Shown piece by piece: positions 6,508 through 57,484 of a stretch of DNA of 64,000 nt (position 1 is the first letter of the stretch; each line of letters begins with the position of its first letter). The position numbers and the translations under genes are program-made. The notes beneath the pieces were generated by a model. That model was given only the letters and a program-made list of their open reading frames with translations. It was not told where the DNA came from and ran no database searches. This DNA comes from Candidatus Magasanikbacteria bacterium RIFOXYD1_FULL_40_23. GTDB lineage: Bacteria > Patescibacteriota > Patescibacteriia > Magasanikbacterales > GWA2-37-8. Location: positions 57,968-121,967 of the forward strand of contig MFRA01000006.1 of NCBI GenBank assembly GCA_001783215.1, written 5' to 3'.

Positions 6508-6511
6508 TTTT

Positions 6512-38395: not shown

Positions 38396-38414
38396 AAAAA
38401 TGTAGGTAAAAAAA

Positions 38415-38488: not shown

Positions 38489-38497
38489 CACGAAAGG

Positions 38498-40768: not shown

Positions 40769-40825
40769 TAGTATTATTAATATGTTATTATATATTAAAT
40801 ATAATTTAGAAAGTGAGGTGAACTT

Positions 40826-41065: not shown

Positions 41066-41086
41066 TTTAACTTTTTCCATTGTCCC

Positions 41087-43111: not shown

Positions 43112-43128
43112 GGAGTAAAATTAGAGGA

Positions 43129-46100
43129 GTGGAAATTATGGAAAAAAATAAGTTTAAAAAAATAATAATTGCATCTTTATTCTCGGTTTTGGTAACCGGT
43201 AGTTTGTTTTTTCTAAAAGATTTAGTTTTTGCTCAAACTATAAGTAGTACAGAATTGGGATTGGGTCAAATAGAAGCGCCTCTTGGATTGCCATCTACAG
43301 ATATCAGAATAGTGGTGGCTAGAATTATTCGTGTTGCGTTAAGCTTGCTCGGAACAGTAGCGCTAGTTCTAATGTTGTATGCAGGGTTTGTCTGGATGAC
43401 TGCCGGTGGAGAGGCTTCAAAAATTGAAGACGCAAAAAAAATAATGGTTAATGCCGCTATTGGTTTGGCTATTATTTTGTCTGCTTATGCAATTACAAGT
43501 TTTGTAATTAGTAAATTAGTAGATGCCACAACGGGTGGGCCGGGAAGTGGTACAGGTGGGCCAGGGCCAGGGGATAACCCATATCTTCCACCTGGAATTT
43601 TTTATGTTGATAATTTGCCGCAAGGTGGACAAATGTGTATTCGCAATGTTCACCCAGCAATCACATTTAATAGGCAGGTAGATTTGGCCACTCTCAGTGG
43701 CAATTTAGTAGTGAGAGAAGCTAATGGCAATGTATATCCGGGGCAGTGGCAGTCATTGGGTCAGAATACCGTAGCATTTGTACCAACCGGAGATTGTGGC
43801 GGCGGTCCAGCCGACTGTTTTGCGCCTTCTACAACCTATAATGTGCATTTCCAAAATGCAGCTTCAATCAGGTCTAGCGAGGGCAATCTTACGCTTAATT
43901 GTACATTTAGAGCGGGTTGTGGAGATGTACAATTTATTACCGGCAATGGCGTAGATAGAACCGCTCCTCAGGTAAGAATAGAGCCTATTTCTAGTGATTT
44001 ATTGCGTGTTGGCACAACCGTACCAGTGGTGGTTAGTTATACCGACGACAACGGCGTGCAAAAGATAGATTTATCGGCTGATACTTATTTTGTTGGCAGT
44101 CAAACAGTATCGGGTTGTCAAAGCACAGGCTCTGTTACTATAAATTGGCCGACAGTTGGAATTCCTACCGGCCAGCATACTTTATATGCTACAGGTTTTG
44201 ATTGGTCTGCATTAAATTACACCACTTCTACAAATGTTAATCTGTTACCGCAACATTGTTTTGATAATGCCTTGCAAGCAGATTTGGGTGAAGTTCGGGT
44301 AGGCCCACCAGCTTGTGGAGGAGAATGTGGTGCTTGTTCTGGTACGCCTTGTACCAATAATACTCAATGTGCCAGCGGGTACTGTGATACGCTTTCAGGA
44401 GTTTGTGTAGATAGAATGAGGATAAATGGTGTTTCTCCTCTTACCGGCGGGCCAGGGACATTTGTTTCTATTTCAGGAAATTATTTTGGTAACACACCCG
44501 GTAGAGTTTTTATAAATAATGTACTAGCACCTTTGGCGCCTTGCGGAGGAAGTGCTTGGTTGCCATGGCAAATAATTACAGAAGTGCCTGCGGGTGCAAG
44601 TACCGGTCCGATTAGAGTAGAAACTGCCACTAGTAGTGGTACAAGTTTTGTAGATTCTACCAACGATGCCTTTGGTCCGATGATTAGTAATTTTACAGTT
44701 GACAATGTTGTTCGTCCTGGTTTGTGCGGTGCTACTCCAGCCAACGGCTTGCCTGGTTCAGAAACTTCTCTTTCCGGCAGGCGTTTGGGTAATTCTCCAG
44801 GGCAAGTATCTTTTGGTATAAACAATGTAGTAGTAAGTTTGGCAAACTGGGCAGATACTTTGGTGCGAGCCAGGGTACCAATGGGTGAAGTTGGTCCGGT
44901 AGCAGTAAAAGTTATTCAAAATAATGTAGAAAGTAATAGTATTAGATTTTTTGTAGAGCAAGGGGTTAGCGATTCTGTGGCAGTAATTTCTAGCGTATCC
45001 CCAGATCATGGGGCTAGGGGAGAGTATATTACTATTACCGGTAATAATTTTGGTAATCAAATAGGAAGAGTTTGGTTTAAAGAAAATATTAATGGTCAGC
45101 CAGGAGATGCAATAGATGGTGATTTTAGTTTTCCGCAAGGATGTCAAAGTACCTGGACAAATAATCAGATAATTGTAAAGTTTCCTCTTGGTAGTGGTAC
45201 ACCAGGAAGATCTTATTTTGTGCAGGTACGTCCAGCCGATGCTTCTCAAGGTCCAAGCCCAATAGGTCCCACATTTAATTTAGAAAATGGCCAACCTTCT
45301 CCTGGTATTTGTAATATTAATCCAGTGTCTGGTCCGGTGCCGTTTCCTGGCGCTGCGCCTCGTATGCAAATTGTTGGAGAGTATTTCGGCGCAACCCCAG
45401 CTGTTTATTTTTGGACAGAAGGCGCTTCGCCAACCGCTATAACTGGTCGTTTATTGTCCGGTTTAGCCACGGTTACCAATTTAGTTGTTGGACAATCTAT
45501 TTCCACAGAACCTCCAGCCGGTACTCGTACCGGTCCGGTAGTTGTATTTAGAAGTTCAGATAATAAAATAAGCAATCCGGCAAATTTTTCTGTATTAGAC
45601 TGCGTAAGAAATAATAATACTTGTACAGCTCCAAATACCCATTGTTGTGTGTCTGGCGCAGAAGCTGGGTTGTGTCGACCAACTAACCAGCTGTGTGCAG
45701 GAGAAACCATTACGGCTGGATATATTTGGCGTTTTAGTACCAGAGATATTCCACCGGTTCCTCGTGTAGTAGAAAGATGTAATAACAATACAGATTTAGG
45801 ACTAAATATTCCTAGCCCATCCCCAAGTATTTTATGGGATTCTTCTGCTGGTGACCCTCATCATAATGTTTGTCGAAGCGCTACTGTCGTAACAGAATTT
45901 AGTTTGCCAAACATAAACAATATTGCTAGAACCAATTTATTAGTTAATGAATGCCAGGCAGACACAATAAATGAAACATCTAGAACATGTACAGTTGCAC
46001 AAGTAGTGCCTATGGCAGGTGCTGGGGATTTTGTGCCGCAACTTAGCACAGAAAATACAAGTTATTTAGAATTAAATCCAGACGCTACTTATAATACAGG

Positions 46101-49100
46101 CAAGTGGAAAGATAATACTTGGTATCAGGTGGTGTTAAGGTCTGCAATAAGTTCAGGTACCGGCACCTCCACTGCTTTTTTGGCGCAAGACAAGCCTTGT
46201 GGTCCGGGATCTTCATACTGTTTTGTGTTCCGATCGGATTCTCAGGATTGTAGAATGAGAAGTGTGGTAATAACGCCGTATACTTATTGGACTTCGGTTT
46301 TGGAAGCTCCTATTAAGAAAAGAAATAGCGTAGATGATGTAGGTGTTGATGTGGTTTATAATGGTCACGGTTTGAGCACACAACATTGTGTTATGATGAA
46401 TACAGATGCGTTTGCTTGGTCCTGGGATACCAGTAACCCGACTTACTCAAGTCTTTTTGTCACAGATAATTCTTGGGCCAAATTTGCGGCCTGGGCTAAT
46501 ACGGTGGGTGTTGGTTTAGTTAACCCAAATAATGCTGTTAATGTAAGAGCTACTGCTAGTCTGGCTTCAGCAAACTATACTGGTGTTAGTTCGCTTACTA
46601 TAGATTTAAATAATCCAGAGGTTGTAGATTTTTGGCCTAAATGTTTGCAGTCATGTACAAATGCCGAAGTGGGTGTTCGTTTTAATACCACCATGTCAAC
46701 CAGAAACCTACCAGGTTCAGCAGTTAGCGGCCCGATTAAATTATTAAGGTGTAATGATGAAAATTGTTTTAACACTACACCAGTACTTTCTTCTTCGGAT
46801 GTAATTTTGGACAGTACCGGTGATTACAGAGTATTAAAATTAGCAAACTCTGTTTCTGGCTCATTAGAGTTGTTGCCAAACACTGTTTACAAAGTTGTCT
46901 TGTCTGTTTCTACAACCAATATTAATTCCCCAGAGTTACTATGGTCGGCAGCTGTTATAGGAGATCCGACTACTTTTTCTAAGCCATATAACAAAGAATT
47001 TAGTTGGAGATTTAAAACCAAAGCAGATAGATGTAGAATTGCCAAGGTAGATGTAACACCAAATATTTTTACAGCTTCTTTTATTACCGATAAAAATATT
47101 TATAGCGCTCAGCCATACTCTTCTCCAGACACTTGTAGTACTCAAGGTCAAAAATTAAATCCTTGGTCTGTTAGTTGGAATTGGAGTTCTGCCCAACCAC
47201 AAGTAGCAAGCATAACCACTTTTAGTTCCAGAGGGAACAATCCTTTCTGCACTTTAAGTTGTACGCGCAAAGGTAGTAGTATTGCAGCCGGTTCTCCGTC
47301 AGTACCAGTTTGTGGAAATAATGTAGTAGAAGCTGGAGAAAATTGCGATTCACCAAATAGAGGCGCTGGCTGTAGTTTGGATTGTCGTAGATTAGGAAAT
47401 ATGAGCAGTTCTACTTGTGGTAATGGTGTTATTGAACCTAACTTGGGAGAAACATGTGATCGCGGTTCTGCTACTTCGTCCATAGGCTGTAGTGATGTTT
47501 GTTTGCACACTGGTTCTTCTAATACCACAGCCCCTGGAGCGGTTAATGCTTCCATTTGTGGAAATGGCATGGTTGGTAGTGGAGAAGATTGTGATGTTGC
47601 AGTTTCGCAGTCTGGAAACACATTATTAAATGGTTTAGTAGGCTGGTGGACTATGGATGCTGCAGATGCAAATGCTACACAAGTCTTTGATAGAAGTGGA
47701 AATAATAATGTTGCAAGTATATTTGGTCCAACAATCGCCACAGGAACGGTCGGCGAAGCAAGGGTTTTTGATGGTGTCGATGATTATCTTTCTCTCCCAA
47801 CACCAAGAGCCAATACCACCACTATTTCTCTGTGGTATAAGACCAATACCATAGTTTTACCTAATAATCATAAAATGTTATTTTCTGGTAGTGTTAATGC
47901 TACTTACATAAGTTTATTTTCAAATGGTGTAGCTAACCCGTTTGTTTCTTTTTGGATTGGAAACACCCAAAGAACATTGAGCAGCGGTGTTCCTTCGGTA
48001 GTAGGCAAATGGACACATGTTATAGTTACTTGGGATGGTGCATTTATTAGGATTTATGTAGATGGAATTCTTAGAAATACTAGCGCCAATTTTTCCGGAG
48101 CTGCTTTAGTCGGCTTAGATTCTGGAGTGGGGTATATTGGTAAGTATCGGGCAAATAACGGTTATGAAACATCTGGCTCTATAGATGATGTGCGAATTTA
48201 TAATCGTGTTCTTTCGGCTGCCGAAATTACTTCCCTTCATCAGTACGGTCAAAATATTATAAATCAATCAACTGGTTGTTCCGAAAGATGTTTGCATTTA
48301 GGTACGCCTATATCTAGTAGTTGGTGTTTTACCAATAATGCTACTCGGGGTGGCTTTTCTCAGACAGACTTTACAGCTGCTTGTAGAAATTCTATTAGTC
48401 GTTGCGGTAATGGTGTGGCCGATCCAGACGAAGATGTTGGTTGTGATTTGGGAGGAGGCAACAAAGCTTCCTGGTGTAATATTTATTGTTTAGCAAACAA
48501 TATTTCTAATCCAGAGTGTGCCGTTGGTGCTGAAGGTTGTAATAGTGTTCGTCAGCATATTGGTTCGTCACTTCTTTACTCAACGCCTTCTCTTTGTGGA
48601 GATGCGGTAGTTGGAATTGGTGAAGATAATTTCTGTGAAACTACTTTGCCAAATACACACACTGGCACTAATCCTTGGGCATTAGTTACCGGAGTAGGAA
48701 GAGGTATTGCTACCGGCGTACCGCCAACTCAAGTTGCATATATTCAAGCCAATACCTCAGATGGAACCGCGAGTGGTCCGGTTGGTGATAGTGGTCAGTT
48801 TGTTATTCCTTGCGGCTATACTTCCGATGCAGAGTGCCAATCTAGAATGGGTGCTGGCTGGGGAGTTGCTACAAACGGTTGTTGTTATTTGCGTCCGCAG
48901 CTAGTTAGCGTTACTCCAGGCAGTACTTCTACAAACCGATTTAATATTTGCCCAAACACTGCCATAGAAGCTTTGTTTGATCAAGATATGGATGTGGGCA
49001 GCGTAATAAATAATGTAGTAGTAGCCCGCGGAACAACGTCTACTTCTTGTGGTGCCAACGAAGATGTCACATCTCTAGCGCTGCTATTAGAAGATGGAAA

Positions 49101-50541
49101 TAAATTACCTTGGTACAAAAAAGTATTTGCTACGATTATTAATTTATTTAAATATATTACTGGTCAGCCAGCCTCTGCTTTGCGCACAGAAGTTCTTTCT
49201 ACTAGATGGTGTGCCGGAGAAGATGTAGGCCGAGCTGATGTTGAAATGGCTAGCGGTACTTTGGGTAAGGTTGTATTTAAATTAAATCGTCCACTTGCCA
49301 CTGATACAGATTATTTCGTAGCTCTTAAAGATGGAATAAGAAGCAAACAGGGGATTAGCATTGGTAGAAACAGTGCAACCAACAGACCTATAGGTTGGAA
49401 ATTTATAACTGGTGAAAGAATTTGTGAAATTGATAGCGTAGATGTTGATCCTCCACAAGTTTATTTTGATAAAGTTGGTGCTACCTCCACTCTCCATGCC
49501 TCCGCTTATACTGCCAGCTCTGCTCGCATACAAACTATACCAGGCTTCTATTCTTGGGAGTATATTTGGCAGCCTGTAAATAATTCTTATGTGGCTTTGC
49601 AAGTTACAACCTCTTCGTTTAATACTATTACTTCCGAAAATCATAATGGTGAAACAGATGTTCGTGCTACAGCCGTAATCACTAGCAATATCTATTCTGC
49701 GCAAGCTGGTGCCGTAGCTACCGGCAAATCCCATATAATTGTATTTTTATGCGAGAATCCATGGCCACCAAAAGATTTGTATATGGGTGGCAATGGTCCT
49801 TATATTATTTTCCCGTATGAAGATAAGATTGGTAATAATGATGGATTTGATTTAGCTTTAAACGCTTTCAACAATACCGCTATTCCAGCTTCTCCTAGTG
49901 GTGGATATTTTAATTTCCGTACTTACTATTGTGCCGACAACGCTGCTTTTGGTACAGATGATGATTTGCCATATCTACGTCCGGCCGTTCAGGTTTCTGC
50001 ATCCGTGGTAGCCGACACTCCTACCTCCAGTTTAAAGAGATTTATTTTTAGTAATAATGACAATAGTGATGGTATCGGAATTGCAGTATTTTCTAATTCG
50101 CAACACTTAACTGTTTCGGAGTGGTTTGAAAACGACCGCGCTTTGGGAGGCCAAGGGTTTACTGGTAATATGCAAACAGCAAAAATCGACGGTTATGACG
50201 CTCTTACAGATGGTAATAATATATATGTTGATGCGTTAAATTATTCTAATTCTTCTAACAATCTATTTTCCAATATTTATTTATTTAGCATAAATTCTAA
50301 CGCCCAAACAGAAACAAGAAAAGTCTTTGAGCAACTAATTGCCAATCTTAGATTTAATACAAACCTAACTAACTATGGTTATTGTGGTTCTACGATGGCT
50401 AATCCGGGAGCGTCTACCACTTGCCAAACTGATTTGGATTGTTCTGGTGCAGAAGTTTGTTCGGTGCAGATAGATAAGTTAAAAAGAAATTATATAAGAT
50501 TAAGGGATCTAAATGAGATTCAAAATTTGCTGGGACCATAA
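43129..50541 (+). CDS. giant (2470 aa) surface protein: signal + T4SS-pilin-like two-TM module + IPT/TIG domains + Myxococcus-type Cys-rich repeats + LamG domain
   Basis: N-terminal module about 80% identical to that of the 41087 protein. Four or more IPT-like units ('INGVSPLTGGPGTFVSISGNYFGNTPGRV'). CGNGV(V/I)E.GE.CD repeats. LamG ('WTHVIVTWDGAFIRIYVDGILRN...IDDVRIYNRVLSAAEI'). Confidence 0.8.
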   Translation: MEIMEKNKFKKIIIASLFSVLVTGSLFFLKDLVFAQTISSTELGLGQIEAPLGLPSTDIRIVVARIIRVALSLLGTVALVLMLYAGFVWMTAGGEASKIEDAKKIMVNAAIGLAIILSAYAITSFVISKLVDATTGGPGSGTGGPGPGDNPYLPPGIFYVDNLPQGGQMCIRNVHPAITFNRQVDLATLSGNLVVREANGNVYPGQWQSLGQNTVAFVPTGDCGGGPADCFAPSTTYNVHFQNAASIRSSEGNLTLNCTFRAGCGDVQFITGNGVDRTAPQVRIEPISSDLLRVGTTVPVVVSYTDDNGVQKIDLSADTYFVGSQTVSGCQSTGSVTINWPTVGIPTGQHTLYATGFDWSALNYTTSTNVNLLPQHCFDNALQADLGEVRVGPPACGGECGACSGTPCTNNTQCASGYCDTLSGVCVDRMRINGVSPLTGGPGTFVSISGNYFGNTPGRVFINNVLAPLAPCGGSAWLPWQIITEVPAGASTGPIRVETATSSGTSFVDSTNDAFGPMISNFTVDNVVRPGLCGATPANGLPGSETSLSGRRLGNSPGQVSFGINNVVVSLANWADTLVRARVPMGEVGPVAVKVIQNNVESNSIRFFVEQGVSDSVAVISSVSPDHGARGEYITITGNNFGNQIGRVWFKENINGQPGDAIDGDFSFPQGCQSTWTNNQIIVKFPLGSGTPGRSYFVQVRPADASQGPSPIGPTFNLENGQPSPGICNINPVSGPVPFPGAAPRMQIVGEYFGATPAVYFWTEGASPTAITGRLLSGLATVTNLVVGQSISTEPPAGTRTGPVVVFRSSDNKISNPANFSVLDCVRNNNTCTAPNTHCCVSGAEAGLCRPTNQLCAGETITAGYIWRFSTRDIPPVPRVVERCNNNTDLGLNIPSPSPSILWDSSAGDPHHNVCRSATVVTEFSLPNINNIARTNLLVNECQADTINETSRTCTVAQVVPMAGAGDFVPQLSTENTSYLELNPDATYNTGKWKDNTWYQVVLRSAISSGTGTSTAFLAQDKPCGPGSSYCFVFRSDSQDCRMRSVVITPYTYWTSVLEAPIKKRNSVDDVGVDVVYNGHGLSTQHCVMMNTDAFAWSWDTSNPTYSSLFVTDNSWAKFAAWANTVGVGLVNPNNAVNVRATASLASANYTGVSSLTIDLNNPEVVDFWPKCLQSCTNAEVGVRFNTTMSTRNLPGSAVSGPIKLLRCNDENCFNTTPVLSSSDVILDSTGDYRVLKLANSVSGSLELLPNTVYKVVLSVSTTNINSPELLWSAAVIGDPTTFSKPYNKEFSWRFKTKADRCRIAKVDVTPNIFTASFITDKNIYSAQPYSSPDTCSTQGQKLNPWSVSWNWSSAQPQVASITTFSSRGNNPFCTLSCTRKGSSIAAGSPSVPVCGNNVVEAGENCDSPNRGAGCSLDCRRLGNMSSSTCGNGVIEPNLGETCDRGSATSSIGCSDVCLHTGSSNTTAPGAVNASICGNGMVGSGEDCDVAVSQSGNTLLNGLVGWWTMDAADANATQVFDRSGNNNVASIFGPTIATGTVGEARVFDGVDDYLSLPTPRANTTTISLWYKTNTIVLPNNHKMLFSGSVNATYISLFSNGVANPFVSFWIGNTQRTLSSGVPSVVGKWTHVIVTWDGAFIRIYVDGILRNTSANFSGAALVGLDSGVGYIGKYRANNGYETSGSIDDVRIYNRVLSAAEITSLHQYGQNIINQSTGCSERCLHLGTPISSSWCFTNNATRGGFSQTDFTAACRNSISRCGNGVADPDEDVGCDLGGGNKASWCNIYCLANNISNPECAVGAEGCNSVRQHIGSSLLYSTPSLCGDAVVGIGEDNFCETTLPNTHTGTNPWALVTGVGRGIATGVPPTQVAYIQANTSDGTASGPVGDSGQFVIPCGYTSDAECQSRMGAGWGVATNGCCYLRPQLVSVTPGSTSTNRFNICPNTAIEALFDQDMDVGSVINNVVVARGTTSTSCGANEDVTSLALLLEDGNKLPWYKKVFATIINLFKYITGQPASALRTEVLSTRWCAGEDVGRADVEMASGTLGKVVFKLNRPLATDTDYFVALKDGIRSKQGISIGRNSATNRPIGWKFITGERICEIDSVDVDPPQVYFDKVGATSTLHASAYTASSARIQTIPGFYSWEYIWQPVNNSYVALQVTTSSFNTITSENHNGETDVRATAVITSNIYSAQAGAVATGKSHIIVFLCENPWPPKDLYMGGNGPYIIFPYEDKIGNNDGFDLALNAFNNTAIPASPSGGYFNFRTYYCADNAAFGTDDDLPYLRPAVQVSASVVADTPTSSLKRFIFSNNDNSDGIGIAVFSNSQHLTVSEWFENDRALGGQGFTGNMQTAKIDGYDALTDGNNIYVDALNYSNSSNNLFSNIYLFSINSNAQTETRKVFEQLIANLRFNTNLTNYGYCGSTMANPGASTTCQTDLDCSGAEVCSVQIDKLKRNYIRLRDLNEIQNLLGP

Positions 50542-50701
50542 ATTAAATAAAGATTTGTGGTATAATATACCCGTTCATCTAACATATATGGGCTAAAAGC
50601 CACATATATACCCGCTCACTCGGAAATATCCAGATTTAATATTTATAACTCGCAAGCGATTATAAATACCTCACTGGCTGTTTCCCTCATTCATTTCGTA
50701 T

Positions 50702-53700
50702 ATGATAAATAAAAAACTAATAGCAATATTTGTAGTAACAGTTTCAGTCTTTAGTTTTTGTATTTATCAAAAAGTAATCGCCGCTCCGACACTAAAAGAG
50801 GGAACATATTTGTCCGGTCAAACTCTGAGCGTATGGCCATCCTGGTCGTTGTTGGGCAATACTTTGGGAAGATCTCTTCCAACAGACCCAATCAACCAGC
50901 TAGGGCTAGCTGGCACCTGTGCTACCACCACCAATAGATTTTGTTTAAATAACTCGCAATGTCCAAATAATGAAGCCTGTGTTTTGCACGACCCAAACAC
51001 TGGCTGGAGTACTGCCGACAGGCGTTTTAGTTTTGCTTGTAATCGTGAATCTTTTGCCTATAGGTATATGGTTGCCACTTCTACTGGCGCATATACAGTG
51101 CGGGCCAATTTTGAAGACCCGGGATTTACCCCGGCTAATTTTAATAATTTTGTATCTGGGTTTATTAGCACCAGTATTTTTAAAATAAATGAAGTTTCTG
51201 GTATATGTAATTTTGATCAAGAAATTTCCACCCTTCAGTCTGGCGTTTGTGGAGATGGTAGATTAAATACGGATAGAGGAGAGCAGTGCGATCCGCCTGG
51301 TCGAATAGAGTACGAAGCTGGACCTTGTATCACAATGATAAAAAATTTAACTGTTTGTAATAACAATTGTAGATGGACTCCTTCTACCACTCTTTGTAGT
51401 AGCTTGCGTAAATGTGGAAATGGGGTAAAAGAATCTCTTGAAACTTGTGATGACGGTGCTTTAAATGGAAGATACAATCATTGTAATACAACCTGCAATG
51501 GTTTTAGTCCTTTAGGCAGATGTGGAAATGGCACTCTAGAATCTGCTTATGAAGTCTGTGACCCTGGCACTGGTAGAGAAAGATATGGAGCAACAGGTCA
51601 ACAAAGTTCTTGTAGTTGGGACTGTCAAAATTGGGGACCGTATTGTGGTAATGGCACTGTTGAAGATCAATTTAACGAAGAATGCGATGGTTCAAAAACT
51701 TGTACATTAGGAGAAAGCTCTGGGCAAAGAGTCTGTACTAGTAATTGTAAAATGGCGCCCAAAGCAGGCCTAGTTGCTTGGTGGAGCTTTTTTAATGGTG
51801 GCTTTACAGACAGCTCCGGAAACGGCAACAACGGTAGTTGTGCTCCGGCAAACAGTTGTCCCACAAACACACAAAGTCTTTCTGATGGTCGCAGATTCAT
51901 GATGTTCCAAAGTAACGACTCTTTCATTGTAGGTGGTAGTCCTACCGTTAATCTTGTTAGTTCCGGTACCATCCAAGCCTGGATAAAACCCCAAGGCTCG
52001 GCAGGACTTAACCAGCGTGTGGTAGAAAAAGGCGCTTCTGCATACGGATACTGGTACGATTTAGAGGTAAATGCCACTGCTAGTGGAACGGCTAGATTTA
52101 ATTTTGCCAACTATTCATCTTTCTCAGTAGATTCTACTTCCCGCATTCCAACTAGTACTTGGACTCATTTGGCCGGAACATTTGAAAGAATAGGTCAAAC
52201 TAACTACATTAAAATTTATGTAAATGGTGTCTTGGAAGGTTCTAGAGAAATTCCTCATCCTCCATTTGTTAGTACTCAAGGCTGGGCACCATTAACTGTA
52301 GGTGCATCCAGAGCGCAAAATGGAACTTATTCAAACTTTTTCTTTGGCGACATAGATGATATTAAAATATATAATCGAGCCATATCTGCTGCCGAAGTGC
52401 TAAGTGATTACCAAAACAATTGGCCATGTTCAGCCACCTCTTCTCAGGCTATCTCAAATCAACCCGGTGTATGTGGAAACAATGTTGTTGATTCAAATGA
52501 GGCCTGCGATAGAGGGGTAGATAATGGACGAGTTTGTACGCCTGGTTATGGTAGTAGTTGTACATACTGTTCCACTGATTGCCAAAATACAATCGATGTT
52601 CAGCCAACCCAATATTGCGGCAATGGTATTATCGAAGCATCCGAAAAATGTGATCAGGCCGGCGGGGTGATATATGCTGCTGCCACAAATACTAATAACA
52701 CCACTCTTCCTACAAGAGATGCAGCTCGCAACGGTTATCAAGAGCTAGCTTGTTCATCCGAAACTAGTCCTGCACACACCCTTAAAAAAGGAACAAAGGA
52801 TTGTAGCAATTGTTCTTTGGGTGTAGTGCGAAATTGTGTCCAGTGCGGTGTTAAATCCGACGGCGTAAGTGCTGGTGGAGGGCTCATAAATGTTTTGCAG
52901 GCTCGAACAAATCCGGATCCGCTTTTTGCTGCGGACTTCGTTACTGGAACTCTAGATCTTTCTATTGGTCCTTGTTATTACATGGGTATAACTGGCATGC
53001 AAAATGTATGCAACAGATCTGGCTCCTTGCTCAATCCTTCAAATCCGGTGGGTGGTACGGTTTCTAAGTATGCAAACTCAACCGATCGTTCAAATTATGT
53101 TTTGCAGAATCCATATGGAGTTGGTAATGCTTTGGTTAATAGCGATACGATGTGTTCCACAGATGATCCAATTCGTAGAAGGTATTGGATGTATGTAAAC
53201 AAAGATTGGACACGTCCGTTTAGCATTCCAATAGTAGATCAACCCCAAACTTGGCAATATGATATGGTTTTATCACCAATAGTGCTACAAGCGTTTAGCA
53301 GAGATGGCGGCGTAACGATTAGAAGAAATCAAGATGTGCGCGTGGTGGTAAGCTGGGTTGGCCCCGATGATTTTTCTAGCGGAATTATCAATCCGTTTGT
53401 TACCCCTCAAGAAATTAATGGTGCTTCATATTGTCCATACGCCTACTGTGGTTCGCAGAGAAGAAGTTATTCAACAGGCGTAGATTATTTCAATACCCCA
53501 AATGCTAATTGGTATGGCGCTTTTTATCATGGCTACAACATAACTACTGGCCAAACCAATGCCGAAGCATTTACAATCAATACGGGTGATATGTCTGGTA
53601 ACACATACTCTTTCTTTGTTAAGTCGCCTAGCGTACCTATCAGACAGTTTAGAAATACGGCCAGAATGAAAGTAGAAGTTTATTTACCGGAACCAGGAGA

Positions 53701-54205
53701 CTTTGTTTATCCAACATTTTGTTGTGAGCCAACCTATACTAACTTAAATCGACGTAGATTTGGCACGCCTGTTAAGACCTATTATCTATTAGGCGCAGCA
53801 CCTTCGGACAACCAAAACGCCAAGTATTGGCAAGTGTTTAATATCAACAGGCCAGGTGTTACCACCACTGTTTCTTCTACGGATATTATTGATGTAAGTA
53901 GTATTGTTACTGGGCCGGCGAATTTTTTATATACAGGCCCTCTTGTTGTCAGACCTCCTTGTACGCTTGCAGATTGGCAGAGCTCAATTACCTATAGTTC
54001 TGGCAATCCTGCTGCAGTAATATGTTATGCGCCAGACACATACACTACAACTTGGTCAAAAGTACCAACATCAGATTGTGCTGGTGGAGTACCGCAACCA
54101 GCTACGGTAACTGCTACTTGTCAGCCTCTCCCTGTTATCGCCCCTGTTTCGTCGCCTATTGTTTCGCCGCCCATTGTTGATCCAAATCCAATATTTTTCC
54201 AATAA
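50702..54205 (+). CDS. large (1167 aa) secreted Cys-rich repeat / LamG-domain protein
   Basis: Signal peptide. Six or more Myxococcus-type Cys-rich repeats (CGDGRLNTDRGEQCD, CGNGTLESAYEVCD, CGNGIIEASEKCD...). LamG ('WTHLAGTFERIGQTNYIKIYVNGVLEGS...IDDIKIYNRAISAAEV'). Pro-rich C-terminus. Confidence 0.78.
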   Translation: MINKKLIAIFVVTVSVFSFCIYQKVIAAPTLKEGTYLSGQTLSVWPSWSLLGNTLGRSLPTDPINQLGLAGTCATTTNRFCLNNSQCPNNEACVLHDPNTGWSTADRRFSFACNRESFAYRYMVATSTGAYTVRANFEDPGFTPANFNNFVSGFISTSIFKINEVSGICNFDQEISTLQSGVCGDGRLNTDRGEQCDPPGRIEYEAGPCITMIKNLTVCNNNCRWTPSTTLCSSLRKCGNGVKESLETCDDGALNGRYNHCNTTCNGFSPLGRCGNGTLESAYEVCDPGTGRERYGATGQQSSCSWDCQNWGPYCGNGTVEDQFNEECDGSKTCTLGESSGQRVCTSNCKMAPKAGLVAWWSFFNGGFTDSSGNGNNGSCAPANSCPTNTQSLSDGRRFMMFQSNDSFIVGGSPTVNLVSSGTIQAWIKPQGSAGLNQRVVEKGASAYGYWYDLEVNATASGTARFNFANYSSFSVDSTSRIPTSTWTHLAGTFERIGQTNYIKIYVNGVLEGSREIPHPPFVSTQGWAPLTVGASRAQNGTYSNFFFGDIDDIKIYNRAISAAEVLSDYQNNWPCSATSSQAISNQPGVCGNNVVDSNEACDRGVDNGRVCTPGYGSSCTYCSTDCQNTIDVQPTQYCGNGIIEASEKCDQAGGVIYAAATNTNNTTLPTRDAARNGYQELACSSETSPAHTLKKGTKDCSNCSLGVVRNCVQCGVKSDGVSAGGGLINVLQARTNPDPLFAADFVTGTLDLSIGPCYYMGITGMQNVCNRSGSLLNPSNPVGGTVSKYANSTDRSNYVLQNPYGVGNALVNSDTMCSTDDPIRRRYWMYVNKDWTRPFSIPIVDQPQTWQYDMVLSPIVLQAFSRDGGVTIRRNQDVRVVVSWVGPDDFSSGIINPFVTPQEINGASYCPYAYCGSQRRSYSTGVDYFNTPNANWYGAFYHGYNITTGQTNAEAFTINTGDMSGNTYSFFVKSPSVPIRQFRNTARMKVEVYLPEPGDFVYPTFCCEPTYTNLNRRRFGTPVKTYYLLGAAPSDNQNAKYWQVFNINRPGVTTTVSSTDIIDVSSIVTGPANFLYTGPLVVRPPCTLADWQSSITYSSGNPAAVICYAPDTYTTTWSKVPTSDCAGGVPQPATVTATCQPLPVIAPVSSPIVSPPIVDPNPIFFQ

Positions 54206-54216
54206 AATAAAGTTGT

Positions 54217-54645
54217 ATGGCAAATAGTAAAAAAATTATAATTTTCTTAATTGTTACAGCGCTCGCGGTGGGTGGGTTCTTCTTGTTGAGAACTTTTGTA
54301 GGTGTAAAGACAAAGGTTGTTTTGCCGCCAGCCACAGAGGATTCTGCCTATGCAAATATAGACAAAGTCAAACAGCAAGAATTTTACGATACTCTAAAAA
54401 AGAGTTATTCATCCGATCAAGACATGGATGGATTGCCAGACAGTGAAGAGCCAAATTATCAAACAAGTGCCACTTCTTCCGATAGTGATAATGACGGCCT
54501 ATCTGACTGGCAAGAGATTAATATTTATGGAACTAGTCCTATAAAAACCGATGATGACGGTGATGGGTATGCCGATGGTTACGAAGTGCGCCGTGGTTTT
54601 AATCCGAAAGGGGAGGGTAAATTACCAGAAACAAAAAAACCATAA
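54217..54645 (+). CDS. membrane-anchored protein with aspartate-rich (TSP3/dockerin-like) Ca-binding repeats, paralog 1
   Basis: N-terminal TM 'IIIFLIVTALAVGGFFLL'. Repeats 'DQDMDGLPDSEE', 'DSDNDGLSDWQE', 'DDDGDGYADGYE'. Confidence 0.65.
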   Translation: MANSKKIIIFLIVTALAVGGFFLLRTFVGVKTKVVLPPATEDSAYANIDKVKQQEFYDTLKKSYSSDQDMDGLPDSEEPNYQTSATSSDSDNDGLSDWQEINIYGTSPIKTDDDGDGYADGYEVRRGFNPKGEGKLPETKKP

Positions 54646-54663
54646 AATTTTAATTAGTATTAT

Positions 54664-55464
54664 ATGTTTGATGAGCAAAATCAAAACCCAATAGTTCCAA
54701 AAAATTTGCCTACTGAACCGGAGGATATGTTTGCCGGCGTAGACAAAAATGCAGGTCAGCCACCAGTAGGTGAATCTGTGCCAGATGCCTTATCCAATGG
54801 TCTTTTGAAGAGAAAAGAGCCATCAAGAAATGAGCCAGGCTTATTGCCAACGGGTGAAGAGGGTGTGGATTTAGGGAAATATAAAATGAGTGAGCCTATT
54901 TTGGGTAAAATTTTGTTGTTTGTAGTAATTATTTTATTTTTAGGCGGTCTAGCATATGCGGGTTGGAGAATTTTTTATAGCGCCAAGAGCGGTCCAGTAG
55001 ATAAATTACCAGTTCAAACTGTTCCAACCAATACTCAAACAGAAGTTCCGCCATCTACAAATCAAGTTGGTGTGTCTAGCAGTCTTCCGGCTCAAATAAA
55101 TAATGATCAAATATTGTTTGGCCAAGGTGTTGATTTGGATAAAGACGGTTTGGATGATGTGCGTGAGAAAGAGATCAAGACTAATCCACAGAATCCGGAT
55201 AGTGATAGTGACGGCATAAATGATGGTGATGAAGTAATTTTGTATAAAAGTCTTCCTCTTAATGCCGACACAGATAGTGATGGATTAAGCGATGGAGATG
55301 AGGTGTTGATTTGGAAAACAAATGTGCTAAACCCAGATACTGATGGAGACAGTTACCCAGATGGTGCAGAGGTAAAGAATGGGTATAGTCCAGTGGGCTC
55401 AGGAAAGCTCTTTAGTCCGCCAACCACAAGCACTACAAGCTCTGCTTCAGTATCAACCACCTAA
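54664..55464 (+). CDS. membrane-anchored protein with aspartate-rich (TSP3/dockerin-like) Ca-binding repeats, paralog 2
   Basis: TM 'ILLFVVIILFLGGLAYAGW'. Repeats 'DLDKDGLDDVRE', 'DSDSDGINDGDE', 'DTDSDGLSDGDE', 'DTDGDSYPDGAE'. Confidence 0.65.
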   Translation: MFDEQNQNPIVPKNLPTEPEDMFAGVDKNAGQPPVGESVPDALSNGLLKRKEPSRNEPGLLPTGEEGVDLGKYKMSEPILGKILLFVVIILFLGGLAYAGWRIFYSAKSGPVDKLPVQTVPTNTQTEVPPSTNQVGVSSSLPAQINNDQILFGQGVDLDKDGLDDVREKEIKTNPQNPDSDSDGINDGDEVILYKSLPLNADTDSDGLSDGDEVLIWKTNVLNPDTDGDSYPDGAEVKNGYSPVGSGKLFSPPTTSTTSSASVSTT

Positions 55465-55477
55465 ATATTATTTTGGT

Positions 55478-56593
55478 ATGTTTGGAAAAAAACCGGATTC
55501 TTCTTTAGAACAATCATTGCCAAATATAAATGTGCAGACTATACCTGCCGATTTTTATGGTGGAGTAAATCCAGTGGTAAAATTTAAAAAAGTTGAAAAA
55601 GAAGTACTTTTGGATTCCAAACCAAAGCTAACACCGGCAGAAAAGAAAATATTAGATAAAATTACATCTGCTGGCAATGACCAGCCGTTGCACGCAGTAA
55701 ATATCTTGGCTAATAAAAAGTACGCTATAATTTTAGGTTTTGTTTTGTTTATAGTTATATCGGCAGTGGTGGGTGGATATTATTATTTGCAAATGAGAAA
55801 TAGTAATACAGGCACTACTCCTACCGCTCCCGAAATAACTATACCTGTTACCGTACCAGAAACCACAGAAACACCCCCAGTAACAACCGAAGTACCAACT
55901 ACCACTGATTCTGCCCCTAAATTTTTAGCAGATGCTCCAATTGAATTCCCATCAAATTTATTAGGCGATAGTGTGGATTTGGATAAAGATGATATAAGCG
56001 ATATGGCCGAAGAGTTGTTTGGTTCCGATCCAAGTAAGCCAGACACGGATGAAGATGGGTACGAAGATGGGCATGAAGTTTTCTATTTATATAATCCGGC
56101 CGGAAAAGAGCCAATGAGGATAATTGAATCAGGATATGTAAAAGAATATCAAAACCCAACATTTGGTTATAAGCTTTTCTATCCAACAGATTGGGCGGTT
56201 GGGGCAGTAGATGATACTGCTCGGGATGTTTTGTTTAGCACCATTACAGGCGAAAACATTGAAGTGAGAACATTTGATTTGCCAGCCAATCAAACTTTTG
56301 CAGACTGGTTTAGAGAATGGGCCCCAAATCAAAATTTCCAAAATAATATAAATGTTCAAACCAAGTTTTTTGAAGCCGGTAAAAGCAGAGCCGATAGTTT
56401 GGTCTATTACTTTGCAGACAGCGCTCATGTTTATGCTATAATCTATCACACCACTGATTCTAATACCGTTAATTTCCGTTCCATTATAGTTATGATGGCC
56501 AGAAGCTTTAGAACAGCCGGGTTTGTCCCGCCAGAAACTGCTCCAGATACCAGTGCGTTCCCTACAGAAATGCCTGAATCTATAAATCAATAA
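55478..56593 (+). CDS. membrane-anchored protein with aspartate-rich repeats plus a C-terminal globular domain, paralog 3
   Basis: TM 'AIILGFVLFIVISAVVGGYYY'. Thr/Pro linker. Repeats 'DLDKDDISDMAE', 'DTDEDGYEDGHE'. The start is set at the ATG at 55478; the ORF track begins at 55379 and overlaps the upstream gene. Confidence 0.6.
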   Translation: MFGKKPDSSLEQSLPNINVQTIPADFYGGVNPVVKFKKVEKEVLLDSKPKLTPAEKKILDKITSAGNDQPLHAVNILANKKYAIILGFVLFIVISAVVGGYYYLQMRNSNTGTTPTAPEITIPVTVPETTETPPVTTEVPTTTDSAPKFLADAPIEFPSNLLGDSVDLDKDDISDMAEELFGSDPSKPDTDEDGYEDGHEVFYLYNPAGKEPMRIIESGYVKEYQNPTFGYKLFYPTDWAVGAVDDTARDVLFSTITGENIEVRTFDLPANQTFADWFREWAPNQNFQNNINVQTKFFEAGKSRADSLVYYFADSAHVYAIIYHTTDSNTVNFRSIIVMMARSFRTAGFVPPETAPDTSAFPTEMPESINQ

Positions 56594-56595
56594 AT

Positions 56596-57036
56596 TTGAC
56601 TAGCATGTTATCTCTAGATTTTAATAAACGAGTGCGATGCCCGTGGAGCTTGGCAGATATACAAAAAGTATTCAAGGTAATCCATAAAAATACAAAAATA
56701 AATGGAGAAGTAGAAGTAAATATCGTTGGGGATAAAGAAATAAAGGATTTAAATTTTAGGTATAGGGGGTTAAACAAACCAACGGATGTTTTATCTTTTG
56801 CTTGGAAAGAAGATAAAATTATTAGAACAAATTATCTGGGCCAGATTTATATTTCTTATCCGCAAATATCTCGTCAAGCCAAAGAATTAGCCATAGAAGC
56901 CAAGGAAGAATTCGTAAGAATGTTGGCGCACGGATTCCTACATATTATAGGCCACGATCATATAGAGAAGAAAGAAGCAAAAGTTATGTTTGGAATTCAA
57001 GAAAAGATAGTAGAGCAGTATTTTAGTAAAAAATAA
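56596..57036 (+). CDS. ybeY: rRNA maturation endoribonuclease YbeY
   Basis: Metal-binding 'HGFLHIIGHDH' (H-x3-H-x5-H). 146 aa. Confidence 0.85.
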   Translation: MTSMLSLDFNKRVRCPWSLADIQKVFKVIHKNTKINGEVEVNIVGDKEIKDLNFRYRGLNKPTDVLSFAWKEDKIIRTNYLGQIYISYPQISRQAKELAIEAKEEFVRMLAHGFLHIIGHDHIEKKEAKVMFGIQEKIVEQYFSKK

Positions 57037-57041
57037 AAATT

Positions 57042-57395
57042 ATGTTTTTCTCTAGATTGCTAAAAAGTTTTGCCGATGCCGCTCGCGGATTAAAACATGT
57101 TTTTAAATCAGAGCAAAATTTTAGAATTCAAGTTTTAATCGGTGTGTTGGTAGTATCGGCAGCGTTTTGGTTGCCTTTGCAGGTGTGGGAAAAAATACTA
57201 GTTATTTTGTTGGTTTTACTTGTTTTGTTGGTAGAAATTTTAAATACAGTTTTTGAATATTTTAGCGACTTGCTCAAACCTCGTTTGCACCACTATATAT
57301 ATGTTATAAAAGATGTTATGGCCGGAGCGGTGCTCCTTACATCGATGGTAGCAATGGTAGTGGGTATAATCATATTCTATCCCTATTTGAAATGA
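57042..57395 (+). CDS. dgkA: diacylglycerol kinase (DgkA-family membrane kinase)
   Basis: 117 aa, 3 TM. N-terminal amphipathic 'LLKSFADAARGLKHVFKSEQNFRIQ' and 'EILNTVFE' motifs. Conserved ybeY-dgkA adjacency. Confidence 0.75.
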   Translation: MFFSRLLKSFADAARGLKHVFKSEQNFRIQVLIGVLVVSAAFWLPLQVWEKILVILLVLLVLLVEILNTVFEYFSDLLKPRLHHYIYVIKDVMAGAVLLTSMVAMVVGIIIFYPYLK

Positions 57396-57484
57396 ACGAG
57401 GTCTCAATTTGAAAAGCATGCTTAATTAGTGATATAATATTACGGCCTATTAGAAAGTAAAGGGTAAATCTGTATAAAACCTAT

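What the first reader, a model, noticed from the sequence alone, without database searches (positions are those of the whole stretch)
54217..56593. Three tandem paralogs: N-terminal TM anchor + Asp-rich TSP3/dockerin-like calcium-binding repeats
Each protein has a single N-terminal TM helix and 3-4 repeats of D-x-D-x-D-G-(L/I/Y)-x-D-x-x-E spaced about 20 aa apart, the EF-hand-like Ca2+-binding loop of thrombospondin type-3 and dockerin repeats. The third paralog adds a ~200-aa C-terminal globular domain ('YVKEYQNPTFGYKLFYPTDWAVG...'). Tandem triplication directly 3' of the megaprotein genes suggests they are partners (anchors or scaffolds) of those proteins.
Basis: partly seen in the sequence, partly recalled or inferred. 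Interest (0 to 1): 0.55.

Follow-up and report, generated by a model that had tools for sequence, protein, structure and literature searches.

The report
Membrane-anchored calcium-loop proteins beside giant genes
Three small neighbouring genes of a Magasanikbacteria (CPR) genome encode single-pass membrane proteins that most likely display calcium-binding loops on the cell surface; all are conserved across this lineage (the smallest missing in about a fifth of species), next to genes for giant surface proteins, and their function is untested.

Summary
Three co-directional genes (54217-54645, 54664-55464, 55478-56593) each encode one transmembrane helix plus 12-residue D-x-D-x-D-G-h-x-D-x-x-E loops spaced 22-23 residues apart. 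P1 and P2 pass Pfam TSP3_bac. The only solved relative by sequence is the Ca-responsive EF-hand 2/3 pair of staphylococcal Bap.

Corrections:
- Loop counts are 3, 4 and 2, not 3-4 each.
- Only P1 has its helix at the N-terminus. P2 and P3 carry about 80-residue cytoplasmic tails that are strongly conserved.
- P3's C-terminal domain is about 130 residues and has a PsbP/Mog1-like fold.
- No dockerin or eukaryotic TSP_3 model matches.

These are three old orthologous families, not a recent triplication. In 80 species, P2 and P3 are always present, between a large surface-protein gene and ybeY-dgkA-ftsA-ftsZ.

That synteny cannot show partnership, because both flanks are equally conserved. One result does discriminate. 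P1 is present only where the C-terminal module of the upstream LamG protein is present (48/48 against 0/13, lost in at least three places of the tree). Adjacency could explain this.

Best reading: Ca2+-stabilised, membrane-anchored adaptors of a lineage-specific surface-protein operon. It is an uncharacterised variant of a known kind, of moderate interest.

The parts
54217..54645 (+). P1, 142 aa. Transmembrane helix at aa 6-24, then three Ca-loop/short-helix units. No cysteine.
   Evidence: ORF. TSP3_bac 2e-12, 47.1 bits. Hydropathy and loop positions. 60 orthologues have ligand Asp/Glu 90-100% conserved. P1 is absent in about 17 of 76 species.
54415..54585 (+). P1 loops: DQDMDGLPDSEE (54415-54450), DSDNDGLSDWQE (54481-54516), DDDGDGYADGYE (54550-54585).
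   Evidence: conservation.
54664..55464 (+). P2, 266 aa. Conserved cytoplasmic tail (aa 1-78), transmembrane helix (aa 79-107), Pro/Thr/Ser-rich linker, four Ca-loop units, Ser/Thr-rich C-terminal end.
   Evidence: ORF. TSP3_bac 1.1e-11 with 4 stretches. Orthologue alignment A2. AF2 model has pLDDT 79-91 over the repeats, and each loop is followed by a short helix. Present in 76/76 species loci.
54664..54897 (+). P2 cytoplasmic tail. Family consensus: MFDDQ..P.NLPTEP.DMFAGVEK....PDALSAGLLKKK. Predicted disordered.
   Evidence: Invariant residues M1 F2 P12 N14 L15 P16 P19 D21 A42 G46 L48. Conserved in the deep clade too. pLDDT below 50. The profile hits only P2 ORFs in 89 loci.
55132..55371 (+). 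P2 loops: DLDKDGLDDVRE, DSDSDGINDGDE, DTDSDGLSDGDE, DTDGDSYPDGAE.
   Evidence: The second unit is missing in distant orthologues. Sequence match to Bap EF-hand 2/3. Structural superposition at 0.8-0.9 A.
55478..56593 (+). P3, 371 aa. Conserved cytoplasmic tail, transmembrane helix (aa 80-108), Pro/Thr linker, two Ca-loop units, PsbP/Mog1-like domain.
   Evidence: Start confirmed by gene calls on 18 contigs. 212 homologues. Alignment A1. AF2 mean pLDDT 81, mostly above 90 from aa 160 to 350.
55478..55714 (+). P3 cytoplasmic tail. Consensus: MFGKK...VQTIPADFYGG.NPVVKFK.VEKEV..LT..EKK.LDK.TA.G.G..LHP.NLL.
   Evidence: Invariant residues P23 F26 G29 N31 P32 K56. The core IP..FYGG.[DN]P is kept in the deepest clade. 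A tail+TM profile finds only 102 representatives among 1.84 billion proteins. Nearly all are 350-450 aa, and every full-length one inspected has the same architecture.
55976..56077 (+). P3 loops: DLDKDDISDMAE (55976-56011) and DTDEDGYEDGHE (56042-56077).
   Evidence: D167 D169 D171 E178 D189 D191 D193 D197 E200 are invariant in 50 sequences. Match to the Bap EF pair at E 0.0015.
56120..56512 (+). P3 extracytoplasmic PsbP/Mog1-like alpha-beta domain (about aa 215-345).
   Evidence: Pfam PsbP 19.9 bits, below the 23.5 cutoff. 28/50 orthologues match PsbP at E<=0.01, best 7e-7. Foldseek hits: CyanoP 2lnj 1.2e-4, BT_1490, plant PsbP, Tsi3, SciW, Mog1.
50702..54205 (+). Upstream LamG / Cys-rich-repeat protein, 1167 aa. 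Signal peptide only, no other transmembrane helix. Its C-terminal module (about aa 700-1080, window 52799-53941) co-varies with P1.
   Evidence: Laminin_G_3 5e-25 and myxo_disulf_rpt. Hydropathy. Co-variation with P1. No PDB relative for the module.
41087..50541 (+). Two surface proteins (674 aa and 2470 aa). Each has a signal peptide and a two-helix VirB2/TrbC-like pilin domain at the N-terminus, followed by Big_5/TIG/LamG domains.
   Evidence: Pfam T4SS_pilin, Big_5, TIG, Laminin_G_3. NCBIfam pilin-like. Hydropathy.
40749..57438 (+). Putative transcription unit rpsU - 674 aa - 2470 aa - 1167 aa - P1 - P2 - P3 - ybeY - dgkA. Gaps around P1-P3 are 2-18 nt. The best promoter-like sites lie before rpsU (40749-40805) and before ftsA (57409-57438).
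   Evidence: ORF coordinates. Consensus scans only; no terminator-like site lies in an intergenic gap between 54205 and 57395.

Best explanation
P1, P2 and P3 are single-pass membrane proteins, inferred to be N-in/C-out, of a Candidatus Magasanikbacteria (CPR/Patescibacteria) genome.

Architecture:
- Outside the cell, on a Pro/Thr/Ser-rich stalk, each displays 2-4 EF-hand-like Ca2+ loops of the bacterial TSP3 type. Each loop is followed by a short helix.
- P3 packs its loop pair against a PsbP/Mog1-fold domain, a fold generally used for protein-protein docking.
- P2 and P3 also carry family-specific, disordered but highly conserved cytoplasmic tails. These look like short linear motifs for an unknown cytoplasmic partner.

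Proposed role: the three genes belong to a lineage-specific surface-protein operon that sits between rpsU and ybeY-dgkA. They most likely act as Ca2+-stabilised, membrane-proximal adaptors or tethers for the large secreted proteins encoded just upstream. P1 is tied to the C-terminal module of the LamG protein. P2 and P3 form the invariant core.

Shown: the architecture, the conservation, the loop homology, the fold and the synteny. Inferred: the topology, Ca2+ binding, the operon, the partnership and the role of the tails.
For: - Real genes and loops.
- Ligand positions invariant across orthologues.
- Homology to the Bap EF-hand 2/3 pair (E 3.4e-8), with superposition at 0.8-0.9 A and 52% identity. 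Those Bap loops are experimentally Ca-responsive (PMC7785521).
- PsbP-like fold.
- One hydrophobic helix per protein and confident ectodomain models.
- Conservation in 80 species representatives: P2 in 76/76 loci, a large surface-protein gene upstream in 65/66 (the exception has an NHL-repeat protein). The deep clade has the same order.
- Gaps of 2-18 nt around P1-P3, and promoter-like sites only at the ends of the array.
- The LamG protein has a signal peptide but no membrane anchor.
- P1 is present only where the LamG C-terminal module is present: 48/48 against 0/13, plus 3/3 in the deep clade. The losses fall in at least three separate tree positions.
- The P3 tail occurs only with this architecture among 1.84 billion representatives.
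Against: - There is no experimental datum for any member.
- ybeY-dgkA-ftsA-ftsZ is just as invariably downstream (67/67). Synteny therefore does not single out the giant proteins as partners.
- P1 and the LamG C-terminal module are adjacent, so one deletion removes both. One species (L029) keeps the module without P1.
- P1 is retained where the LamG protein is fused to the pilin-anchored giant, so it is not simply an anchor for a free protein.
- The upstream large protein varies in family (LamG/Cys-rich or NHL) while P2 and P3 stay constant.
- P3 itself is below the Pfam cutoffs for both TSP3_bac and PsbP.
- AF2 does not model Ca2+.
- Promoter and terminator scans are consensus matches only.
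Confidence: 0.45

Rival explanations
1. P2 and P3 are bitopic envelope or division-site proteins in the style of MapZ, DivIB or FtsN. Their conserved cytoplasmic tails would bind FtsA, FtsZ or another cytoskeletal protein encoded just downstream. Their ectodomains would report or organise the wall or surface at the division site. On this reading the giant-protein neighbours are incidental.
For: - ybeY-dgkA-ftsA-ftsZ follows P3 in 67/67 loci and in the deep clade.
- The tails are the most conserved non-loop parts of P2 and P3.
- The general architecture (tail, transmembrane helix, linker, ectodomain) is that of several division proteins (own knowledge).
- The P3 tail 'TIPADFYGG' loosely recalls the FtsZ C-terminal peptide 'LEIPAFIRK' of this genome.
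Against: - ybeY and dgkA lie in between, and ftsA has the strongest promoter-like site of the region directly in front of it.
- No Pfam or NCBIfam match to POTRA/FtsQ, FtsN, MapZ or any division family at E<=1.
- The P3 ectodomain is PsbP-like, not POTRA.
- The motif resemblance to the FtsZ peptide is off by one residue and was not tested.
- The P2 and P3 tails are not significantly alike (hhalign E 0.16).
Confidence: 0.12
2. They are free-standing Ca2+-binding surface or envelope proteins, acting for example as a cation store, a wall or S-layer spacer, or an adhesin for a host cell. They have no specific partner among their neighbours. The gene order persists only because this part of Magasanikbacteria genomes rearranges slowly.
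For: - The whole 20-kb block, including unrelated housekeeping genes (nrdR, pyk, glyA), is syntenic in every locus.
- TSP3_bac repeats occur in many unrelated bacterial surface proteins, such as OmpA-type proteins (P0229), CglD/MtsD and giant Omnitrophota proteins.
- The upstream protein family varies while P2 and P3 do not.
Against: - Gaps of 2-18 nt, and start/stop overlaps in several species, suggest co-translation.
- P1 is repeatedly co-lost with the LamG C-terminal module.
- The conserved cytoplasmic tails are hard to explain for a passive surface protein.
- The PsbP-like fold is typically a docking module (own knowledge).
Confidence: 0.28
3. They are dockerin-like modules that plug into cohesin-like domains of the megaproteins, forming a cellulosome-style assembly.
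For: - The loop-helix units are spaced 22-23 residues apart and occur in pairs, as in dockerins.
- TSP3_bac and dockerin co-occur in giant Omnitrophota proteins.
Against: - No Dockerin_1 hit at E<=1 in P1-P3, and no cohesin hit in the three upstream proteins.
- The closest solved relative is Bap, not a dockerin.
Confidence: 0.05

Closest known systems
Bacterial TSP3 repeat proteins (Pfam PF18884), e.g. Myxococcus CglD/MtsD and OmpA-family proteins with TSP3 linkers
   Same: The 12-residue DxDxDG loops, in tandem with a 22-23 residue period, on extracytoplasmic proteins. P1 and P2 pass the curated cutoff. Local matches to CglD/MtsD models.
   Different: - No OmpA, VWA or lipoprotein part.
- Anchored by a single transmembrane helix.
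- Only 2-4 repeats.
- P2 and P3 add conserved cytoplasmic tails, and P3 adds a PsbP-like domain.
- Scores are far below the equivalog cutoffs for CglD (400) and MtsD (800).
Staphylococcal Bap B-domain EF-hand 2/3 pair (PDB 7C7R/7C7U)
   Same: The only solved relative by sequence (E 3.4e-8). Two consecutive loops superpose at 0.8-0.9 A with 51-52% identity. In Bap these loops make aggregation and biofilm formation Ca2+-sensitive (PMC7785521).
   Different: Bap is a wall-anchored adhesin of more than 2000 aa, and the similarity covers about 45-78 residues only. There is no evidence here for amyloid-forming segments.
PsbP / CyanoP / Mog1 / DUF1795 (SciW, Tsi3) fold
   Same: The P3 C-terminal domain has this alpha-beta sandwich. 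Foldseek E 1.2e-4 to CyanoP at probability 1.0. PsbP HMM hits in 28/50 orthologues.
   Different: - The organism is a CPR bacterium, a group not known to be photosynthetic, and no photosystem gene is in the window.
- The window copy is below the Pfam cutoff (19.9 against 23.5 bits).
- The domain is fused to Ca loops, a transmembrane helix and a cytoplasmic tail. This combination was not seen in any other protein retrieved here.
Eukaryotic thrombospondin type-3 repeats and clostridial dockerins
   Same: DxDxDG-type Ca2+ loops in tandem.
   Different: No Pfam TSP_3 or Dockerin_1 match at E<=1. No cysteines, whereas eukaryotic TSP3 repeats are disulfide-pinned (own knowledge). No cohesin partner detected.

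Membership tests
Bacterial TSP3 repeat (Pfam PF18884, TSP3_bac) | Whole-protein HMM score at or above the curated cutoff (25 bits) | tested here: met
   P1 47.1 bits and P2 44.8 bits. P3 scores only 15.3 bits and so fails on its own. However, 8/50 P3 orthologues match at E<=0.01 (best 3e-7), and P3 aligns to the P2 repeats (BLASTP 7e-10).
Bacterial TSP3 repeat (Pfam PF18884, TSP3_bac) | Tandem 12-residue loops with acidic residues at positions 1, 3, 5, 9 and 12 and Gly at position 6 | tested here: met
   Nine loops, spaced 22-23 aa apart. Ligand positions are invariant or at least 90% conserved in the orthologues.
Bacterial TSP3 repeat (Pfam PF18884, TSP3_bac) | Ca2+ is actually bound | not testable with these tools
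   Only indirect evidence: sequence and structural match to the Ca-responsive Bap EF-hand 2/3 pair.
Eukaryotic thrombospondin type-3 repeat (Pfam TSP_3) | HMM match and disulfide-pinned repeats | tested here: not met
   Not among the Pfam hits at E<=1. P1, P2 and P3 contain no cysteine.
Dockerin type I (Pfam Dockerin_1) | HMM match to the duplicated F-hand segment | tested here: not met
   No hit at E<=1 for P1, P2 or P3.
Dockerin type I (Pfam Dockerin_1) | A cohesin-bearing partner protein | tested here: not met
   No cohesin family among the Pfam hits of the three upstream proteins. Their structures were not predicted.
PsbP family (Pfam PF01789) / PsbP-Mog1 fold | HMM score at or above the curated cutoff (23.5 bits) | tested here: not met
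   The window P3 scores 19.6-19.9 bits. 28/50 orthologues match at E<=0.01, best 7e-7.
PsbP family (Pfam PF01789) / PsbP-Mog1 fold | Alpha-beta sandwich fold shared with PsbP, CyanoP and Mog1 | tested here: met
   AF2 pLDDT mostly above 90 over the domain. Foldseek top hits are CyanoP 2lnj (1.2e-4), BT_1490, plant PsbP (target-normalised TM 0.43-0.54), Tsi3, SciW and Mog1.
PsbP family (Pfam PF01789) / PsbP-Mog1 fold | Association with photosystem II | tested here: not met
   No photosystem family appears among the Pfam hits of the 43 larger window ORFs that were scanned. The source is a Magasanikbacteria MAG.
Divisome bitopic proteins (FtsQ/DivIB POTRA, FtsN, MapZ) | Sequence or fold match to the family's ectodomain | tested here: not met
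   No such Pfam or NCBIfam hit at E<=1. The P3 ectodomain is PsbP-like.
OmpA-type peptidoglycan-associated TSP3 proteins (a source's name for the P2 orthologue P0151) | C-terminal OmpA domain (PF00691) | tested here: not met
   P2 has only TSP3_bac hits. An OmpA domain is seen only in the unrelated hit P0229.

The most novel reading that the evidence does not exclude
P2 and P3 form a transmembrane coupling device specific to Magasanikbacteria. Their invariant cytoplasmic motifs (P2: NLP.EP.DMF; P3: IP..FYGG.[DN]P) would recruit a conserved cytoplasmic machine, possibly FtsA/FtsZ encoded downstream. Their Ca2+-loaded ectodomains would hold the giant pilin-anchored surface proteins. Together this would couple surface architecture, or attachment to a host, to the cell interior in an integrin-like or MapZ-like way.
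Probability: 0.1. Interest if true: 0.7.

Novelty: new variant of a known kind. Interest (0 to 1): 0.38.

Why it matters
CPR bacteria are thought to live attached to other cells, and most of their surface machinery is unknown. This work defines a surface-protein operon conserved across the Magasanikbacteria sampled here. Its invariant core is two small Ca2+-loop membrane proteins with conserved cytoplasmic motifs, next to giant proteins whose families vary. That gives concrete, small, expressible targets for studying how giant surface proteins are organised. Candidate experiments are Ca2+ binding, tail-peptide pull-downs and complex prediction with the LamG C-terminal module. The work also corrects misleading database names for these families. 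On present evidence it is a moderately interesting, uncharacterised lineage-specific variant rather than a new principle.

Tried and rejected
- Dockerin or eukaryotic TSP3 membership: no HMM hits and no cysteines.
- Recent tandem duplication: no DNA repeat longer than 34 nt, and three separate orthologous families are present in every clade.
- Recent horizontal insertion: GC content is 0.37-0.44 across the region, with no break at the genes.
- A shared cytoplasmic motif in P2 and P3: hhalign of the two tail profiles gives E 0.16, which is not significant.
- The same tails on other proteins: tail HMMs hit only P2 and P3 ORFs in the window and 89 loci. The P3 tail profile finds a closed family of 102 representatives.
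- Co-occurrence with the giant genes as a test of partnership: uninformative, because both flanks are equally conserved.
- Outgroup contexts: the 'distant' clade reached through P0335 is also Magasanikbacteria and has the same gene order. No relative outside the lineage was found.
- RNA elements in the region: none among Rfam gathering-level hits.
- PDB relatives of the LamG C-terminal module: none.
- Literature: no paper links TSP3 repeats to Patescibacteria, and the only paper pairing 'Magasanikbacteria' with 'surface protein' mentions each term once and was not read.
Full report
**What is there.** Three co-directional ORFs lie at 54217-54645 (P1, 142 aa), 54664-55464 (P2, 266 aa) and 55379/55478-56593 (P3). 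Gene calls on 18 public contigs that carry the identical P3 start it at 55478, giving 371 aa, 13 nt after the P2 stop. The source is a Candidatus Magasanikbacteria MAG of the CPR/Patescibacteria group. The gaps are 11 nt (LamG gene to P1), 18 nt, 13 nt, and 2-11 nt (P3 to ybeY, depending on the ybeY start).

**The repeats are real and specific.** A loose pattern for D-x-D-x-D-G-h-x-D-x-x-E matches nine times: P1 at aa 67, 89 and 112; P2 at aa 157, 179, 202 and 225; P3 at aa 167 and 189. The spacing is 22-23 residues. The pattern matches nowhere else in the six reading frames of the 64-kb window.

- Pfam TSP3_bac (PF18884) scores 47.1 bits for P1 and 44.8 bits for P2 against a cutoff of 25. P3 reaches only 15.3 bits.
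- No dockerin or eukaryotic TSP_3 model appears at E<=1, and the three proteins contain no cysteine.
- NCBIfam gives only local matches to the TSP3 parts of Myxococcus CglD and MtsD, far below their cutoffs.

**The loops look like working Ca2+ sites.**

- In 50 P3 orthologues the residues D167, D169, D171, E178, D189, D191, D193, D197 and E200 are invariant.
- The equivalent positions are invariant in 43 P2 orthologues and 90-100% conserved in 60 P1 orthologues.
- A profile of the P2 family finds a single family among all PDB sequences: the B domain of staphylococcal Bap (7C7U/7C7R, E 3.4e-8). The alignment falls on the consecutive loops DYDKDGLLDRYE and DTDGDGKNDGDE. The P3 profile finds the same pair (E 0.0015).
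- The AF2 model of P2 has pLDDT 79-91 over the repeats, and each loop is followed by a short helix. It superposes on that Bap segment at 0.8-0.9 A over 44-45 columns with 51-52% identity.
- A review reports that Bap region B carries two EF-hand motifs with the DxDxDG loop. Point mutations at loop positions 1, 3 and 12 abolish the Ca2+ sensitivity of Bap-mediated biofilm (PMC7785521).
- Ca2+ binding by P1-P3 themselves remains an inference.

**Architecture, corrected.** Each protein has one strongly hydrophobic segment: P1 at aa 6-24, P2 at aa 79-97 and P3 at aa 82-100. AF2 models the P2 and P3 segments as helices 79-107 and 80-108.

- Only P1 is anchored at its N-terminus. P2 and P3 carry tails of about 80 residues in front of the helix.
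- I infer an N-in/C-out topology. This rests on the extracytoplasmic nature of TSP3 and PsbP-like modules and on the lysines before the helices. It was not tested.
- P3 is modelled confidently: mean pLDDT 81, and mostly above 90 from aa 160 to 350. Its C-terminal domain (about aa 215-345) matches CyanoP (2lnj, E 1.2e-4), BT_1490, plant PsbP, Tsi3, SciW (DUF1795) and Mog1.
- The Pfam PsbP score is 19.9 bits, below the 23.5 cutoff, but 28 of 50 orthologues match at E<=0.01, best 7e-7.
- It is therefore a PsbP/Mog1-fold domain, not a photosystem protein.

**Three old families, not a recent triplication.** The proteins are related through their repeat regions. P1/P2 share 39% identity over 90 aa (E 4e-16). 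The P2/P3 alignment extends through the helix, the linker and the first repeats (E 7e-10). P1/P3 gives E 2e-9. At the DNA level nothing longer than 34 nt is repeated, and base composition is even across the region.

- P3 has 212 homologues, full length, down to 44% identity.
- P2 has a parallel series of orthologues, some with three loops instead of four.
- A scan of one genome per GTDB species found 116 loci, of which 80 were kept. Many titles say 'Gammaproteobacteria' although the records named by their submitters are Magasanikbacteria or Patescibacteria.
- In those 80 loci the order is large surface protein(s) - (P1) - P2 - P3 - ybeY - dgkA - ftsA - ftsZ - nrdR - pyk. The counts are P2 in 76/76, P1 by BLAST in 57/76, a giant/LamG hit upstream in 65/66, and ybeY+dgkA+ftsA downstream in 67/67.
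- The one locus without a giant/LamG hit has an NHL-repeat protein of about 990 aa in that position.
- A deeper clade was reached through a weak hit of the tail profile (P0335). Its members are also named Magasanikbacteria and keep the same order, apart from small insertions and one dgkA loss.

**The cytoplasmic tails are the unexpected part.**

- The P2 tail consensus is MFDDQ..P.NLPTEP.DMFAGVEK....PDALSAGLLKKK. Residues M1 F2 P12 N14 L15 P16 P19 D21 A42 G46 L48 are invariant. The tail is kept in the deep clade.
- The P3 tail consensus is MFGKK...VQTIPADFYGG.NPVVKFK.VEKEV..LT..EKK.LDK. Residues P23 F26 G29 N31 P32 K56 are invariant. In the deepest members it reduces to IP..FYGG.[DN]P.
- Both tails are predicted disordered.
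- The two tails look alike to the eye (P-x-D-[FM]-[FY]-[GA]-G), but profile-profile comparison is not significant (E 0.16).
- Tail HMMs hit no other ORF in the window or in 89 loci.
- A profile of the P3 tail plus helix, run against 1.84 billion representatives, found only 102 proteins at E<=0.001. Apart from fragments and one spurious repeat protein, nearly all are 350-450 aa, and every full-length one inspected has the same architecture.
- P3 is thus a closed, lineage-restricted family without its own Pfam model.

**Does the neighbourhood indicate partnership with the megaproteins?**

- The 674-aa and 2470-aa proteins each start with a signal peptide and a two-helix VirB2/TrbC-like pilin domain, followed by Big_5, TIG and LamG domains. 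The 1167-aa LamG / Cys-rich-repeat protein has a signal peptide only.
- The best promoter-like sites lie before rpsU (40749-40805) and before ftsA (57409-57438). No terminator-like site falls in an intergenic gap between the LamG gene and dgkA. These are consensus matches only. They fit one unit from rpsU to dgkA, with ftsA transcribed separately.
- Conserved adjacency alone cannot separate 'partner of the giants' from 'slowly rearranging block', because both flanks are equally conserved.
- One comparison does discriminate, and it concerns P1 only. Among loci with at least 3.5 kb upstream, all 48 with a P1-like gene also have the C-terminal module of the LamG protein (about aa 700-1080). All 13 without P1 lack that module. 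The three deep-clade loci have both.
- The P1-less species sit in at least three or four places of a P3+FtsA+FtsZ neighbour-joining tree. Their nearest relatives carry P1 in 198-200 of 200 bootstrap resamplings.
- Caveats: the module and P1 are adjacent, so one deletion removes both. One short locus (L029) keeps the module without P1. The tree is a simple distance tree.
- P2 and P3, by contrast, stay constant while the upstream protein varies between split and fused forms and between LamG/Cys-rich and NHL families.

**Most likely mechanism.** P1-P3 are membrane-anchored proteins whose Ca2+-loaded loop-helix units form a rigid, acidic, membrane-proximal module outside the cell. P3 adds a docking domain.

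They are probably co-expressed with the giant surface proteins and act as their adaptors or tethers. P1 serves the LamG C-terminal module, and P2 and P3 form the constant core. The P2 and P3 tails connect this core to an unknown cytoplasmic partner. I put this at about 0.45.

- The main rival is a set of free-standing Ca2+-binding surface proteins with no specific partner (0.28).
- A division-linked role through the tails is possible (0.12). It has no homology support, and the resemblance of 'TIPADFYGG' to the FtsZ C-terminal peptide 'LEIPAFIRK' is only a lead.
- A dockerin-cohesin reading is unlikely (0.05).

**Known or new.** TSP3_bac loops, Bap-type EF-hand pairs and PsbP-like domains are all known. 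TSP3_bac repeats are also reported inside giant proteins of Omnitrophota, sometimes together with dockerins (bioRxiv 10.64898/2026.06.07.730766). In the library searched, no paper links thrombospondin-type repeats to Patescibacteria. The single paper that pairs 'Magasanikbacteria' with 'surface protein' mentions each term once and was not read.

Three things have no description that I could find:
- the combination of conserved tail, transmembrane helix, two loops and PsbP-like domain;
- the P2 family with its own tail;
- their fixed place in a lineage-wide surface-protein operon.

This is a new variant of a known kind, of moderate interest.

Noticed in passing
window 34107-38572: The 16S rRNA gene (34107-35730) spans 1624 nt against a 1533-position model, and no 23S gene is in the window. 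About 2.7 kb with ORFs lacking convincing Pfam hits (35866-36189, 36189-36515 with only weak sub-cutoff matches, 36973-37809) separates it from tRNA-Ile(GAT) and tRNA-Val(GAC) at 38415-38572.
   Followed up: partly
window 43129-54205; loci L026-L089: The 2470-aa and 1167-aa proteins are separate genes here and in close relatives. In many other species the stretch is one unbroken reading frame of about 2900-3250 codons, a gene fusion or fission within the lineage.
   Followed up: partly
window 41087-41500 and 43129-43530: The 674-aa and 2470-aa proteins share nearly the same N-terminus: a signal peptide plus a two-helix VirB2/TrbC-like pilin domain (PF18895, and the NCBIfam Mbov_0395 pilin-like family). 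No type IV secretion ATPase or other T4SS component appears among the Pfam hits of the 43 larger window ORFs that were scanned.
   Followed up: partly
window 1795-7387: A run of co-directional genes: nitroreductase/SagB-like, Glu/Leu dehydrogenase-like, a 520-aa protein with no Pfam hit, ThiF-like, and an alpha/beta hydrolase. This is possibly a small biosynthetic cluster.
   Followed up: no
L091 8617-8994; L090 14870-15268: Small '23S_rRNA_IVP' family genes are inserted between P1 and P2 in one species and after ftsZ in another. They interrupt an otherwise fixed gene order.
   Followed up: no
window 7398-9634: A histidine kinase with a 7TM N-terminal region (7398-9020) lies directly upstream of a bactofilin gene (9155-9634).
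   Followed up: no
window 26833-31908: A further large protein (1691 aa, with fn3 domains near the C-terminus) is followed by trmD. No TSP3-type gene lies next to it.
   Followed up: no
database records for orthologues (P0030, P0151, P0239, P0403; locus titles L011-L089): Source names are misleading. P3 and P2 orthologues are called 'Fibronectin type III domain protein', 'von Willebrand factor type A' or 'Peptidoglycan-associated outer membrane protein'. Many of the MAGs are titled 'uncultured Gammaproteobacteria' although they carry this Magasanikbacteria-type block.
   Followed up: partly
P0313 (946 aa, representative library): The P3 tail profile matched positions 29-48 six times in an unrelated 946-aa repeat protein (units such as 'VGVNPVVVFQTVHTV'). 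This is probably chance similarity of a beta-strand repeat to the 'NPVVKFKxVEKEV' stretch.
   Followed up: no
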